20,735 nucleotides of DNA from a virus. The DNA lies in the UHGV virus genome UHGV-0041589. One strand, 5' to 3'. A program made the position numbers and the translations under genes. This document shows, piece after piece, positions 8,179 through 13,162 of this stretch. The notes beneath the pieces were generated by a model. The model was not told where the DNA came from and ran no database searches. It saw nothing but the letters and a program-made list of their open reading frames with translations. The first letter of the stretch is position 1. Every line of letters begins with the position of its first letter.

Positions 8179-8832
8179 TTAAGCATCTACCCCTTCGTCA
8201 GAAGGGAGGCCGATCATTTCGTTGAGAGTTTCGCGTCGTATAGCTGGCGGAAGCGGAGCAGATGGTGCATCGGCTGGCAGAAGTTCTTTAGCTTCAGGCC
8301 ACTCTTCCAGCAGGCGCTTAACTGTGCGCACTTTACTGAGTGCAGCGCTGACATTCTGTCGAATGTCTGACTCATCGCTCTGTATCTGCTCATAAAGTGT
8401 ATCAAACCCGTAAAACTCTGTAACTAGAGGGTCATTTGCCAGAAGGGTAAATTCCCCCGGCGCGATTTTGTGAATATGGTCTGGTGACCCTGATTCATAT
8501 CCTCGGTAGTTACCGTTGAAATAGACGGTAACCCGAGAACCTGCCAGATTCAGACACATGTAACACTCTTCCCTGATAATGTTATTGGCGGTTTTTAATG
8601 CTTCGGGGAATTTTGATACCAGTGTTTCTATTTTTTTTATATTTTTTAATATTTCAGCTTCTTTCTCTACGCCCCCGATAGCTGCAAGCCGAACACGTTC
8701 GGCCCATTCAACACGAGCAGCTCGTAGTGCTGATTTACGTTTGGGGATACCCGCTTTCTCAAGTGCGTTATTGATGATTTGAGTTTTAAGGTAATTAGTT
8801 AATACGGGCTGTGACATTATTCTTTCCCTCAT
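8179..8832 (-). CDS. Hypothetical protein (about 212-217 aa); start ambiguous (ATG 8832 or ATG 8817)
   Basis: Long ORF with lower GC than the core replication genes; Lys/Glu-rich helical N-terminal half, no recognisable catalytic motif. Both candidate ATGs have a GA-rich SD-like sequence upstream. Confidence 0.55.
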   Translation of the reverse strand: MRERIMSQPVLTNYLKTQIINNALEKAGIPKRKSALRAARVEWAERVRLAAIGGVEKEAEILKNIKKIETLVSKFPEALKTANNIIREECYMCLNLAGSRVTVYFNGNYRGYESGSPDHIHKIAPGEFTLLANDPLVTEFYGFDTLYEQIQSDESDIRQNVSAALSKVRTVKRLLEEWPEAKELLPADAPSAPLPPAIRRETLNEMIGLPSDEGVDA

Positions 8833-8868
8833 GAGATCCCCCAGCACGCAGCTGGGGGATGAATATTT

Positions 8869-10736: not shown

Positions 10737-11639
10737 TTAACCCTCCAGTGCTTTTTCAGCCAGGGTGATTACTTCAGCGAGATTTTCATCCGTTACTTCA
10801 CCAAGTTTCCTGGCTCCCTGTTTTTCCAGAATTGCAATAGCTTCTGCCCGGTAACCCCCTTTTGCTAACTGGAGGATCAACCCTTCAGCTTGTTTGCGTA
10901 GTGCCGCGAAATCAATTGTATGGTCATCTTTGGCGTCATTATTCTGGCTGGAATTTGCTGCGTCTCTGCGTGCAAATTCTTCCTGCAGCTGAAGGTACTC
11001 AACACGGTTGATCTCGATATGGCCTTTTTTAAGCATCTCGTTCAACTTGCGTAAGGTATGGAGTTCACTGGCTGCTGTGCCGGATACATTTTTGACGTAA
11101 AACGGCCCCGTGCGTTCTCCATCTTTGTTACTGGCCTTTTTCGGCTTAACTTCATCACGCCCATCTGCAGGTGCATCAAGTAGCTGCTCGGCAAAAGCAC
11201 GTCGCTCGCCGATGGTTGGCAGGTCGTCCCAGAACTTAAGGATGTTACGGGACAGGTCCAGGAGAGCAGGTTTAAGCAGCGCCCTGGCTCGTTTGACGCC
11301 CTGCAATGCGCTGTCGAGAGCATCAATCTGAACAACTCGTTTATCGCCTTCAGCATCACGGTAGGCAACAGCACGTTGCAGCATGTCTTCTGTGATAGGG
11401 GTGGCTACCGGGTAGAAACCAGCCAGTGCGATAACGTCGCTGAACTCCAGATCATCCAGTGTCATTGCCGCTGACATATTTTCAGTTTCAGTTGCTGTAT
11501 CCCGACATTCCTGCACTCGTGAAATCGTGTCAGGATGCATAACAATGCCTGATGCCATTGTGCGGATAAGACGTTCAAGCAGCGCATTATGTTGTGCCAG
11601 AAGTTGATTATTAAGTTCTAGACTGGTTTCTAAACTCAT
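10737..11639 (-). CDS. Hypothetical protein (300 aa), helical and coiled-coil-like
   Basis: Long ORF; start ATG overlaps the upstream stop (ATGA); stop TAA 2 nt before the DUF2800 start. No motif recognised. Confidence 0.65.
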
Positions 11640-11785
11640 ACTGTGGTCCTCGCTACAAGGAGAATGAAAGTGATGATCAGACCGAGCGCAGTGGCAACGG
11701 CCAGACCGGTCATCAAATCGAAGTTTTTACGGCGATAACGGAGAACATCGCGCCCCGTCAGTCGATGGATGTGTTCAGGTTTCAT
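11636..11785 (-). CDS. Small membrane protein (49-60 aa; start ambiguous among 11785, 11806, 11818)
   Basis: C-terminal hydrophobic segment LAVATALGLIITFILLVA. ATG 11785 has AAAGGAA 9 nt upstream; the others lack an SD. Stop overlaps the next gene start (ATGA). Confidence 0.45.
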   Translation of the reverse strand: MKPEHIHRLTGRDVLRYRRKNFDLMTGLAVATALGLIITFILLVARTTV

Positions 11786-11844
11786 CGGTTGTATTCCTTT
11801 TTTCATATCGGGGAGCACGCTGTTGCGAGTGCGCTTTCAGACAT

Positions 11845-11870
11845 AAAAAAGCCCGTCACGTGAGGCGGGC
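11845..11870 (-). terminator. Rho-independent terminator candidate (minus strand)
   Basis: Minus-strand RNA GCCCG-CC-UCAC/GUGA-CGGGC (5 bp + bulge + 2 bp, 4-nt loop) followed by UUUUUU (plus-strand A6 at 11845-11850). About 30 nt downstream of the zinc-ribbon ORF stop. Confidence 0.5.
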
Positions 11871-11901
11871 AAAGACTACACACAGCAATTACATGGATGA
11901 T

Positions 11902-12096
11902 TCAGTTGGTATTGTGCGTACGTGGTACCACAAGGTTGAAGCGGACACGCCAGTGCGTTGCAATGGTATGCAGGAAAGCACCACATCCAGGGCAGTGCTC
12001 ATAACATTCGTTGATTTGGTATCGTTTTGGCTTTGGTGTCAGAAGCTGTGTTTGGCAAGCAGGGCATTCACCTTTGAGCGGTTTATACGTTTTCAC
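11902..12096 (-). CDS. Small zinc-ribbon protein (64 aa, CxxC...CxxC)
   Basis: GTG start with GAGGAAA 6 nt upstream; Cys pairs CPAC and CPGC about 20 residues apart; terminator-like hairpin downstream. First gene after the candidate leftward promoter. Confidence 0.45.
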   Translation of the reverse strand: MKTYKPLKGECPACQTQLLTPKPKRYQINECYEHCPGCGAFLHTIATHWRVRFNLVVPRTHNTN

Positions 12097-12263
12097 GCCG
12101 TTTCCTCATTCAGTTCACTTTGGTGGTTCGGCGGCTTCGACTTGTATCAGTAGACAGTGCTTCGCCGCACCCCAAAGGGAACTTACTGACCCGTATTGCC
12201 GACATCCTGTCCCGCCACGGTCCCGACGCATGGTTTAGAGTCGCGCCGTTCGACTTGTGGCTA

Positions 12264-12314
12264 AAGATACAATTTGAGTTGTATTATGTAAACCACAAAT
12301 GTGGTATTTTGTGG
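12264..12314 (-). promoter_or_regulatory. Candidate leftward early promoter with operator-like inverted repeats
   Basis: On the minus strand: -35 TTTACA (plus 12287-12292), 17-nt spacer, -10 TATCTT (plus 12264-12269). Adjacent CCACA-AA-TGTGG and CCACAAA/TTTGTGG inverted repeats (12293-12314), and GTTGTATTATGT resembling the GTTGTATTAATGT motif in the cI-cro intergenic region. Confidence 0.3.
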
Positions 12315-12379
12315 GGTGTGAATACTACTTTATTGATATTTAAGTGAATTTAATTTGTAAGACTTTACAAATGGGGTAA

Positions 12380-12399
12380 GGGAGGCTGTTACGCCTCCC
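12380..12399 (-). terminator. Hairpin about 20 nt downstream of the repressor stop (weak terminator candidate)
   Basis: Perfect 7-bp stem GGGAGGC/GCCUCCC with 6-nt loop; the following U-tract on the minus strand is only moderate (UUACCCCAUUUGU). Confidence 0.3.
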
Positions 12400-12418
12400 G
12401 ATATTTACGGTGGGAATA

Positions 12419-13042
12419 CTAACGTTTACGGCGGTAAATACGGTGTTCGATCATTACACCTATGATCTGTAAGTTCATATCTGCACTACGAAAAATAGGG
12501 TAATCAGGATTTAGGGGGATTAATTCAAAGTCGTCGATGCCGATTCCTAATGGACGGTATTTTTTAAATGTAGCTTCGTGACCGTCGTTTTTGGCGACAA
12601 CAAACTCCCCTGGTGCAGGACATAGATCAGGATCGATGATAACAATGTCTCCTTCTTTAAACTCTGGTTGCATGCTGTCGCCATCGATACGTAATGCGAA
12701 GCATGTTTCTGGAATGTCAGAGTCTGCCAAAATATATTCAAATTCCCCTGTCAGATCTGTTATGTCTCTTGCTTCTGTAAGCTCTCCTGCCTGAACGTAA
12801 CTTAATATAGGTATGCGTCTGGTACTTATCTCCGCGAGAGGCATAATATTTTTACCGTTCAGTAGCCAGTCTGGGCTACATTTCAAGGCCTTAGCCAGAT
12901 CCAGAAGATTGCGTGGCTTTCTGGTTCGTCCACTTTCGATGGATTCTATGGATTGTTGGCTAACCCCTGCAGAATTCGCTACTTCCACTTGAGTCATTCC
13001 TAATTCCAAACGACGTGCTTTAAAACGGGCTGCGAGAGACAT
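12419..13042 (-). CDS. CI-like prophage repressor (XRE-type HTH + S24 LexA-like autopeptidase domain)
   Basis: Start at ATG 13042 with AAGGA 8 nt upstream (longer ORF to 13093 lacks an RBS). N-terminal HTH LGMTQVEVANSAGVSQQSIESIESG; Ala-Gly cleavage site (YVQAGE); catalytic Ser in GDSM and Lys in FKKY. Confidence 0.85.
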   Translation of the reverse strand: MSLAARFKARRLELGMTQVEVANSAGVSQQSIESIESGRTRKPRNLLDLAKALKCSPDWLLNGKNIMPLAEISTRRIPILSYVQAGELTEARDITDLTGEFEYILADSDIPETCFALRIDGDSMQPEFKEGDIVIIDPDLCPAPGEFVVAKNDGHEATFKKYRPLGIGIDDFELIPLNPDYPIFRSADMNLQIIGVMIEHRIYRRKR

Positions 13043-13162
13043 GGGATTAGTCCTTCTGGGTTGTATTAATGTGTATCCCCACATTAAAAACAATTTTTGT
13101 TGTATTTGACAAACCTCGTTTGTTGTTGCTAAATACCACTAAAATTGTATGAGGTGAAAGCA
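13043..13162. promoter_or_regulatory. Divergent immunity-switch intergenic region (candidate rightward and leftward promoters and operators)
   Basis: Perfect -35 TTGACA at 13106-13111 with a weak -10 (TAAATA, about 13130-13135) oriented toward cro. Repeated GTTGTATT motifs (13060-13067, 13099-13106) and inverted repeat TTGTATTAATGT ... ACATTAAAAACAA (13061-13093). Minus-strand -35/-10 candidates for the repressor. Confidence 0.45.

What the first reader, a model, noticed from the sequence alone, without database searches (positions are those of the whole stretch)
11845..12418. Small zinc-ribbon protein with terminator, preceded by a structured GC-rich leader containing a 10-bp direct repeat
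The first leftward gene after the candidate promoter is a 64-aa CxxC...CxxC zinc-ribbon protein with its own terminator hairpin (11851-11870 + U6). Its 5' region (12100-12260) is GC-rich and non-coding, with TTCGACTTGT repeated 113 bp apart (12136-12145 and 12249-12258). This is the slot where lambdoid phages carry N and nutL, so a structured leader plus a small nucleic-acid-binding protein could be an antitermination or other RNA-based regulatory device; a small RNA is also possible.
Basis: partly seen in the sequence, partly recalled or inferred. Interest (0 to 1): 0.5.

Follow-up and report, generated by a model that had tools for sequence, protein, structure and literature searches.

The report
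Phage put antiterminator plus RprA-like terminator
The "structured leader" is a member of the known HK022 put family, an RNA that lets RNA polymerase read through terminators; the zinc-ribbon gene is an optional passenger, and the terminator behind it unexpectedly copies the 3' half of the host small RNA RprA.

Summary
The window is an E. coli prophage next to yfhL. All features are on the minus strand:
- A CI-controlled early-left promoter (12292..12264), whose operator-like palindrome recurs twice between cI and cro.
- A 70-nt HK022-type putL antiterminator RNA (12257..12188). It keeps the solved put structure, with compensatory changes in stem II.
- A stable, conserved leader hairpin (12183..12112).
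- A 64-aa zinc-ribbon gene (12096..11902), under purifying selection.
- An intrinsic terminator (11870..11845).

In 77 related phages the leader carries either put or a boxA-type module, never both. The zinc-ribbon gene is in only 18 of them and occurs with either leader. So the RNA is the antiterminator and the protein is an accessory cassette, not an N analogue.

The 10-bp repeat is real, but its copies belong to two different RNA elements.

New observation: the 20 nt before the terminator, plus the hairpin, are homologous to the processed 3' half of the host sRNA RprA (24/24 nt identical; Rfam 50.5 bits, below the cut-off of 70). The same module sits at this position in at least 74 of 77 relatives, in 811 plasmids (mostly Klebsiella) and in lytic Erwinia phages. 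I found no paper describing it. Its function is untested.

The parts
12264..12292 (-). Early-left promoter pL (TTTACA, 17 nt, TATCTT).
   Evidence: Promoter scan. The -35 hexamer is the same as in HK022 pL, and the 12-nt spacing from the -10 to GAACGG of put is identical. Homology with relatives of other immunity types ends at about 12260, i.e. at the transcription start.
12268..12283 (.). Operator-like palindrome TACAATTTGAGTTGTA overlapping the -10 region and spacer of pL (candidate oL).
   Evidence: TACAA-N6-TTGTA with at most 1 mismatch occurs 3 times in the window: here and twice in the cI-cro gap (13089-13104, 13134-13149). 0.3 are expected; 0/100 shuffles reach 3.
12188..12257 (-). putL-like antiterminator RNA (stem I with 5' duplex, stem II).
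   Evidence: - blastn match to HK022, O276 and HK75 putL and to the HK639 putL-like element.
- On a 27-sequence alignment threaded on the cryo-EM structure, 93.7% of cells are paired and 10 pairs change on both sides. Covariation is 0.368 against 0.106 shuffled (0/500) and at most 0.084 when slid.
- The covariance model scores it 87.6 bits, and it is the only copy in the window. The window sequence was part of the model.
- A8, A9, U21, C25, U28, U32, G35, G43 and the A64 equivalent are all kept.
12112..12183 (-). Long imperfect leader hairpin ending just upstream of the Shine-Dalgarno sequence. The second copy of the 10-bp repeat (12136-12145) lies in its apical part.
   Evidence: MFE -32.7 kcal/mol, z = -3.54, 0/200 shuffles. 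The basal stem GUUCC-CUUUGGGGUG...CCAAAG-UGAAC is kept in 19 sequence variants, with both put and boxA leaders and in front of different first genes. There are a few U-A/C-G exchanges.
11902..12096 (-). 64-aa zinc-ribbon ORF from a very small family (orphan); an accessory first-gene cassette.
   Evidence: - Translation.
- Three clusters among 5.8 billion proteins; five real relatives among 1.84 billion representatives.
- The four CxxC cysteines are invariant.
- dN/dS is 0.16-0.44.
- It occupies the same slot in an Enterobacter bugandensis prophage.
- No significant Pfam, NCBIfam, PHROG, PADLOC or PDB match.
11871..11890 (-). Conserved single-stranded stretch AAUUGCUGUGUGUAGUCUUU, identical to the start of processed RprA.
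   Evidence: Rfam RprA match at 11841-11950, 50.5 bits, E = 2.3e-5, gathering score 70. 24/24 nt are identical to E. coli K-12 rprA. The stretch is mostly 95% or more conserved (never below 90%) in 53 distinct sequences anchored on the downstream gene, while the hairpin interior and the flanks vary.
11845..11870 (-). Intrinsic terminator (GCCCGCC...GACGGGC plus U6); the first terminator of the pL operon.
   Evidence: Sequence and fold. In relatives the fifth stem pair is G-C, C-G or A-U. It is followed by the 49-aa ORF 11636-11785 and the replication genes.
12380..12399 (-). Hairpin GGGAGGC-GUAACA-GCCUCCC just after the cI stop codon; a candidate weak cI terminator that separates cI from pL.
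   Evidence: Fold -16.1 kcal/mol, z = -3.4. The T-run after it is poor.

Best explanation
The region is the promoter-proximal end of the repressor-controlled early-left operon of a temperate E. coli phage.

Proposed sequence of events:
1. When the LexA-family CI repressor is removed, RNA polymerase starts at pL, at about 12257.
2. The first 70 nt of the transcript fold into an HK022-type put RNA. By analogy with HK022, this RNA binds the beta' zinc-binding domain of the polymerase that made it and makes that polymerase resistant to pausing and termination.
3. The modified polymerase passes a conserved leader hairpin and the zinc-ribbon gene.
4. It then reads through the intrinsic terminator at 11870-11845 into the replication and recombination genes.

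The zinc-ribbon protein is an exchangeable, early-expressed accessory gene and is not a partner of put.

Polymerases that escape modification stop at the terminator. The resulting transcript has a 3' end that matches processed RprA, a U-rich stretch plus hairpin plus poly-U of the kind that binds Hfq. It may therefore yield an RprA-like small RNA.

Shown here: sequence, structure conservation, gene order, the either/or pattern of leaders. Inferred: binding to polymerase, read-through, any small-RNA activity.
For: Put identity:
- blastn matches to annotated putL and pL of HK022, O276 and HK75, and to the HK639 putL-like RNA.
- The solved put structure (PMC9378689) is kept, with compensatory changes, and RNAalifold independently recovers both stems.
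- The residues whose mutation impairs put are conserved.
- The promoter-to-put spacing is the same as in HK022.

CI control:
- The operator motif is shared by pL and the cI-cro gap.

A terminator to overcome:
-; it sits between the first gene and the replication genes.

Antitermination role of the leader:
- In 77 relatives, 27 have put, 49 have a boxA leader and none has both. All lie upstream of the same terminator module.

The protein is not coupled to put:
- It is present in 14 of 27 put loci and 4 of 49 boxA loci. Other cassettes fill the same slot: 33 aa, 47 aa, about 100 aa, and 174 aa with a weak DnaN match.

RprA likeness:
-.
- The processed form is the last 47 nt of RprA and has regulatory activity of its own (PMC9262595).
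Against: - No experiment here shows read-through or polymerase binding.
- The put segment has no unusual folding energy.
- The unpaired 'wedge' base of stem II is G here and U in HK022.
- No second put was found for the rightward operon.
- The RprA model score is below Rfam's cut-off, and the rpoS-pairing part of RprA is absent.
- No separate promoter for a small RNA was predicted.
- No complementary target was found in the window.
Confidence: 0.8

Rival explanations
1. One reading: the zinc-ribbon protein is an N-like antiterminator (or other regulator) that acts on the structured leader as its nut-like site.
For: It is the first gene after pL, which is the position of N. It is a small zinc ribbon with weak, sub-threshold matches to nucleic-acid-binding zinc fingers such as zf-IS66, TFIIB and Nop10.
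Against: - The leader is a put RNA, a class that needs no phage protein (PMC9378689).
- The gene is absent from 13 of 27 put-bearing relatives and present with boxA-type leaders in 4.
- The window's leader has no boxA, and I see no arginine-rich N-terminal motif in the protein.
- The slot holds unrelated cassettes in relatives.
Confidence: 0.04
2. The RprA-like stretch is only a terminator, captured from or shared with the host by horizontal transfer. It has no trans-acting role. Its conserved flank serves termination efficiency or protection of the mRNA 3' end.
For: - It sits exactly where a first terminator is expected.
- No own promoter.
- The rpoS-pairing half of RprA is missing, and the score is below the Rfam cut-off.
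- No target was found in the window.
Against: - The 20 nt before the hairpin are more conserved than the hairpin interior and both flanks, across relatives whose neighbouring protein is only 69-100% identical.
- The same module recurs behind unrelated genes in 811 plasmids and in lytic Erwinia phages.
- A terminator alone does not need that sequence.
- Processed RprA has regulatory activity of its own (PMC9262595).
Confidence: 0.4
3. The leader (12100-12260) produces a free, stable small RNA acting in trans.
For: It is non-coding and has conserved structure.
Against: - No terminator follows put or the hairpin.
- The hairpin ends just upstream of the Shine-Dalgarno sequence of whatever gene follows.
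- No Rfam match.
- Put is known to act in cis on its own polymerase (PMC9378689).
Confidence: 0.07
4. The 10-bp direct repeat is a functional pair, for example two binding sites or two competing pairing partners for the CGACU strand of put stem I.
For: An exact 10-mer twice in about 160 nt is unlikely by chance. The core AAG(U/C)CGAA recurs in the hairpin apex of several leader types. Both copies contain AGUCG, which pairs with C15-U19 of put.
Against: - In most relatives the second copy reads ACAAGCCGAA, and the first copy varies outside AGUCGAA.
- The hairpin also occurs with boxA leaders that have no put.
- The window-type hairpin has a shortened and rearranged apical region compared with the commoner type.
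Confidence: 0.1

Closest known systems
HK022 putL (polymerase utilisation) antiterminator RNA, including the putL-like element of phage HK639 (King et al. 2011, J Bacteriol 193:5784, listed in the references of PMC9378689; cryo-EM structure in PMC9378689)
   Same: - Position directly after pL, with the same -10-to-put spacing.
- Stem I is almost identical, including the A3-G7/C15-U19 duplex, A9, G35 and the -10-like AACCAU.
- Stem II has the same internal loop GGCGGG...CGGCAAU and an AGGAU apical loop.
- It is followed by a first gene and then a terminator.
- A single leftward copy, as annotated for HK639.
   Different: - The stems of stem II have different sequence, kept paired by compensatory changes.
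- The upper stem is 1 bp shorter.
- The unpaired 'wedge' base is G, not U.
- No putR copy.
- The host phage is not lambdoid in its replication genes (DNA polymerase, DUF2800, DUF2815, VapE).
- The downstream gene is a zinc-ribbon ORF instead of nun.
Phage lambda nutL-N leader, with the RNase III-sensitive hairpin in front of N (own knowledge)
   Same: The order is the same: promoter, antitermination RNA site, large hairpin just upstream of the ribosome-binding site of the first gene, first terminator.
   Different: No boxA or boxB, and no N-like protein. RNase III cleavage of the hairpin at 12183..12112 is only an analogy and was not tested.
RprA small RNA of Enterobacteriaceae (Rfam RF00034), especially its processed 47-nt 3' form
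   Same: AAUUGCUGUGUGUAGUCUUUGCCC is identical. A terminator hairpin of the same length and a poly-U tail follow. Some relatives also keep AUCCCCUGAGU, or the RprA hairpin sequence itself (L022 and L099).
   Different: - Embedded at the 3' end of a phage mRNA rather than being a separate gene with its own promoter.
- The 5' stem-loops and the rpoS-pairing segment are absent.
- Scores 50.5 bits against the cut-off of 70.
3'UTR-derived, Hfq-binding small RNAs and phage-encoded small RNAs or anti-sRNAs, e.g. AsxR and AgvB (PMC4104026)
   Same: A U-rich stretch plus terminator hairpin plus poly-U at the end of an mRNA on a mobile element, resembling a core-genome regulatory RNA.
   Different: There is no expression or Hfq-binding evidence for this one. 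Those examples antagonise host sRNAs (AgvB carries the GcvB target sequence; AsxR pairs with FnrS), whereas this copies part of an sRNA.

Membership tests
HK022-type put antiterminator RNA | Lies in the transcribed leader immediately downstream of an early promoter and upstream of terminators. | tested here: met
   pL is at 12292..12264 and put at 12257..12188. The spacing is identical to HK022. The terminator is at 11870..11845.
HK022-type put antiterminator RNA | Two-stem fold: stem I with a 5' duplex, stem II with a conserved internal loop. | tested here: met
   93.7% of cells are paired and 10 pairs have compensatory changes. Covariation is 0.368 against 0.106 shuffled (0/500) and at most 0.084 when slid. 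RNAalifold recovers both stems. Caveat: stem I could not vary, because the sequences were collected with a stem I pattern.
HK022-type put antiterminator RNA | Nucleotides whose mutation impairs function: A8, A9, U21, C25, U28, U32, G35, G43, A64. | tested here: met
   All are present at the equivalent positions of the window sequence (numbering).
HK022-type put antiterminator RNA | Acts in cis, without phage proteins, through the beta' zinc-binding domain of RNA polymerase; suppresses pausing and termination. | not testable with these tools
   Indirect support only: put occurs without the zinc-ribbon gene in 13 of 27 relatives, and put and boxA leaders are mutually exclusive.
RprA sRNA (Rfam RF00034) | Full-length match at or above the curated score (70 bits). 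| tested here: not met
   50.5 bits in the window and 46.5-65.5 bits in related loci.
RprA sRNA (Rfam RF00034) | 5' stem-loops and the segment that pairs with the rpoS leader (UCCCCU...AACGAAUU). | tested here: not met
   The corresponding stretch is the end of the zinc-ribbon coding sequence. Only AAUU remains. The pairing segment is recalled from my own knowledge of the RprA literature.
RprA sRNA (Rfam RF00034) | Conserved 3' part (processed form): single-stranded AUUGCUGUGUGUAGUCUUU, terminator hairpin, poly-U. | tested here: met
   24/24 nt are identical, and the hairpin has the same length.
Lambda-type N/nut antitermination | boxA and boxB in the leader, and an arginine-rich N protein as the first gene. 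| tested here: not met
   No boxA within 2 mismatches in 11801-12420. By my reading of the sequence, the first-gene product is a Cys4 zinc ribbon without an arginine-rich N-terminus.
Known zinc-ribbon protein families (Pfam, NCBIfam, PHROGs, PADLOC, PDB) | Score above a curated threshold for any family. | tested here: not met
   The best match is zf-IS66 at 25.9 bits, below its 27.3 cut-off, and covers only residues 34-59. PHROG matches have E of 0.006 or worse; NCBIfam E of 0.02 or worse; PADLOC none; PDB E of 0.13 or worse. One distant relative (P0005) carries a precomputed Pfam label, Phage_Mu_gp6, which I could not reproduce.

The most novel reading that the evidence does not exclude
Mobile elements of enterobacteria carry a portable copy of the processed half of RprA as a 3'-end module. 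They include this group of temperate phages, hundreds of large Klebsiella plasmids and lytic N4-like Erwinia phages.

The module would give rise to an Hfq-binding small RNA that mimics or competes with processed RprA, and so taps into the host envelope-stress (Rcs/RprA) network.

In this phage its production by termination would be set by how many polymerases escape put modification. That would link an antitermination switch to small-RNA output.
Probability: 0.3. Interest if true: 0.75.

Novelty: new member of a known kind. Interest (0 to 1): 0.45.

Why it matters
For annotation, 630 bp that PGAP leaves empty in at least 36 complete E. coli genomes can now be labelled: promoter and operator, put antiterminator RNA, leader hairpin, a real small gene and a terminator.

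For biology, three points follow:
- Put RNAs are used outside classical lambdoid phages. In this phage group they are swapped one-for-one with a boxA-type leader. That gives a natural comparison of two antitermination solutions upstream of the same terminator.
- The slot behind the antiterminator is a hot spot for small, fast-changing early genes. These are candidates for host takeover or anti-defence functions.
- If the RprA-like module is active, it would be a case of phages and plasmids copying part of a core stress-response small RNA. That could be tested directly with Northern blots and Hfq pull-downs after induction.

Tried and rejected
- Rfam at curated thresholds found nothing in the window.
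- Folding the whole leader as one piece gave z = -1.4, and the put part alone z = +0.8. Thermodynamic folding alone would have wrongly dismissed put.
- The covariance-model search for a second (putR-like) copy found none. The next best hit scored 10.6 bits.
- The search for a sequence complementary to the RprA-like stretch found only the site itself.
- For the zinc-ribbon protein, Pfam, PHROGs, NCBIfam, PADLOC and PDB sequence searches gave nothing above threshold. The weak PHROG match to Lar-like restriction alleviation (E = 0.099) is too weak to use.
- The AlphaFold model had mean pLDDT 64 with only three sequences, so I ran no fold search.
- The exhaustive HMMER search added only two small relatives, plus spurious repeat proteins. 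tblastn of the most distant relative found only hypothetical proteins of Pseudomonas phages.
- The + strand ORF 12120-12347 looked protein-like by eye, but has no family match and overlaps put and pL, so I rejected it.
- The small - strand ORF starting MRRDRGG inside put has no Shine-Dalgarno sequence and changes frame and length in relatives, so I rejected it.
- The papers King et al. 2011 and Papenfort et al. 2015 were not available.
- Literature searches for phage or plasmid homologues of RprA found none. This covers only the held library.
- The simple terminator scan misses the 11851-11870 hairpin, because its loop exceeds 8 nt when the inner pair is not counted.

Full report
**Context.** The window matches a prophage integrated next to yfhL at 100% identity in several E. 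coli chromosomes. The early-left genes run on the minus strand and include DUF2800, DUF2815, a DNA polymerase, Nmad5 and SNF2. A LexA-family CI repressor lies at 12419-13093 (-). A Cro-like gene, a VapE-domain gene and a Q antiterminator run rightward. NCBI's PGAP pipeline annotates nothing between 11786 and 12419, which is the stretch in question.

**Observation check.**
- The ORF, the terminator, the 10-bp repeat and the composition are all as described.
- The leader is 56.5% G+C against 50.5% for the window, so it is only moderately GC-rich.
- Its 3' half forms a hairpin at 12183..12112 that is far more stable than shuffled controls (-32.7 kcal/mol, z = -3.5).
- The 5' half has no unusual folding energy (z = +0.8).

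**What the leader is.** A sensitive blastn search matched 12184-12300 to pL and putL of phage HK022 and its relatives O276 and HK75, and to the putL-like antiterminator RNA of HK639. All of these are annotated as such in GenBank.

- The -35 hexamer (TTTACA) and the 12-nt distance from the -10 to the GAACGG of put are the same as in HK022.
- A scan of viral contigs for a 14-nt stem I motif returned dozens of put-like elements with differing stem II sequences.
- I threaded the cryo-EM base-pairing scheme of HK022 put (PMC9378689) onto a 27-sequence alignment. 93.7% of pair cells are standard pairs and 10 pairs show changes on both sides. The covariation score is 0.368, against 0.106 in shuffles (0 of 500 reach it) and at most 0.084 when partners are slid.
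- RNAalifold independently finds both stems.
- The window sequence keeps the A3-G7/C15-U19 duplex, with a U5-A17 pair where HK022 has A5-U17. It also keeps the A9 and G35 pair, the -10-like AACCAU, and the internal loop of stem II.
- Caveat: the collection pattern fixes stem I, so only stem II and the 5-17 pair are informative.
- A covariance model finds one copy in the window and no rightward copy.

**Control of the promoter.** The palindrome TACAA-N6-TTGTA overlaps pL and occurs twice more in the window, both times in the cI-cro gap (3 hits against 0.3 expected). The promoter is therefore most likely repressor-controlled, like pL of lambdoid phages.

**Is the zinc-ribbon protein part of the device?** I anchored on the 49-aa gene downstream of the terminator and collected 77 related loci with enough upstream sequence.

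- 27 loci have put, 49 have a boxA-like leader (CGCTCTTTAACAA), and none has both. One locus with a shorter upstream flank shows neither. The covariance model confirms this split.
- The zinc-ribbon gene is present in 18 loci: 14 with put and 4 with boxA.
- In other put-bearing relatives the same slot holds unrelated ORFs of 33, 47, about 100 or 174 aa. The 174-aa ORF gives a weak match to the DnaN model (E = 7e-5).
- The leader is therefore the antitermination module, and the first gene is an exchangeable cassette.

The ORF itself appears to be a real gene:
- It has a good Shine-Dalgarno sequence.
- The four CxxC cysteines are invariant.
- dN/dS is 0.16-0.44.
- It sits in the same position in an Enterobacter prophage.

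Its family is very small and has no assigned function. My best guess is an early accessory function such as host takeover, anti-defence or exclusion, as Nun has in the same slot of HK022. Confidence in that guess is low.

**The 10-bp repeat.**
- The copy at 12249-12258 is nucleotides -1 to +9 of the transcript. It forms the 5' strand of the stem I duplex plus A8 and A9.
- The copy at 12136-12145 lies in the apical part of the leader hairpin.
- In most relatives this second copy reads ACAAGCCGAA. The hairpin also occurs with boxA leaders that have no put.
- The repeat is real, but it is not conserved as a pair.

**The leader hairpin.**
- Its basal stem is conserved in 19 sequence variants, with a few compensatory exchanges.
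- It always ends about 8 nt before the Shine-Dalgarno sequence of whatever gene follows.
- The arrangement resembles the RNase III-sensitive hairpin between nutL and N in lambda (own knowledge). This is an analogy only.

**The terminator.** A permissive Rfam scan matched 11841-11950 to RprA at 50.5 bits, E = 2.3e-5, against a curated cut-off of 70.

- The match lies in the 3' half. AAUUGCUGUGUGUAGUCUUUGCCC is identical to E. coli rprA. A hairpin of the same length and a U-run follow.
- This corresponds to the processed form of RprA, its last 47 nt, which exists in vivo and represses narP on its own (PMC9262595).
- In the anchored set, at least 74 of 77 loci carry the module.
- Across 53 distinct upstream sequences the 20 nt before the hairpin are mostly 95% or more conserved (never below 90%). 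The hairpin interior, the upstream flank and the downstream leader are much more variable.
- The fifth stem pair is G-C, C-G or A-U in different variants.
- Some relatives are even closer to RprA. L099 scores 65.5 bits with an almost identical hairpin, and L022 keeps AUCCCCUGAGU.
- The same module follows an 86-aa ORF in 811 plasmids, 753 of them from Klebsiella. It also follows thymidylate synthase in lytic N4-like Erwinia phages.
- I found no paper describing phage or plasmid homologues of RprA. The library searched is incomplete.
- There is no own promoter and no target in the window.
- Whether the module yields an active small RNA or is only a well-travelled terminator remains open. I put the two readings at roughly equal odds.

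**Mechanism.**
- After repressor loss, transcription from pL makes put.
- By analogy with HK022, put anchors to the beta' zinc-binding domain of its own polymerase. That polymerase then reads through the terminator into the replication genes.
- Unmodified polymerases stop and leave a roughly 410-nt zinc-ribbon mRNA with an RprA-like 3' end.
- Shown: identity and conservation of the parts, and the either/or leader pattern.
- Inferred: polymerase binding, read-through and small-RNA activity.

**Verdict.**
- The put element is a new member of a known family.
- The RprA-like terminator module is the unexpected part and deserves a direct test.

Noticed in passing
Related loci L007 (about 2300-2650, - strand) and L181 1160-1440; not in the window: Relatives without put carry a boxA-like sequence (CG(C/T)TCTTTAACAA) at the same place. 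About 170-200 nt of conserved, apparently non-coding RNA follow it, with three GGUAAGC repeats. In the L181 type there is no ORF between the promoter and the RprA-like terminator, so there is no N gene. There is no Rfam match. It may be a second, N-independent antiterminator RNA.
   Followed up: partly
L008 2501-2561, L212 1501-1561 (Klebsiella-type plasmids); L211 601-647 (Erwinia phage Ea9-2): The RprA-like 3' module (AAU(U/A)GCUGUGUGUAGUCUUUGCCC plus hairpin plus U-run) follows an 86-aa hypothetical gene in 811 plasmids, and follows thymidylate synthase in lytic N4-like Erwinia phages.
   Followed up: partly
window 12291-12306: A second palindrome, ACCACAAATGTGGT, overlaps the -35 of pL, and a related TTTGTGGGG lies nearby. 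It differs from the TACAA-N6-TTGTA motif and is conserved in L023, L101 and L130. It may be another operator or a binding site for a second regulator.
   Followed up: partly
window 11786-11840 and the same stretch in relatives: Between the terminator and the 49-aa ORF lies a conserved stretch, CUGAAAGCGCAYUC...GUGCGCUCCCCGAYAUGAAAA, with hairpin potential. It is absent in the L181-type phages, where the terminator directly abuts the Shine-Dalgarno sequence.
   Followed up: no
window 11636-11785 (-): The 49-aa ORF after the terminator (PHROG 11981, E = 3e-36, unknown function) is the most constant gene at the start of the early-left operon in this phage group. It looks like a small membrane protein (MTGLAVATALGLIITF...).
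   Followed up: no
L038-type cassettes: L101/L079 (174-aa ORF), L022 (33 aa), L023 (47 aa), L099 (about 100 aa): The slot between the leader hairpin and the RprA-like terminator is a hot spot for unrelated small genes. One of them gives a weak match to the DNA polymerase III beta subunit model (TIGR00663, E = 7e-5, far below its cut-off).
   Followed up: partly
window 8179-8847 and neighbours: The prophage encodes an Nmad5-family putative nucleotide-modification protein, two methyltransferases, an SNF2 protein and a VRR-NUC protein in its early-left operon. This suggests DNA modification by the phage.
   Followed up: no
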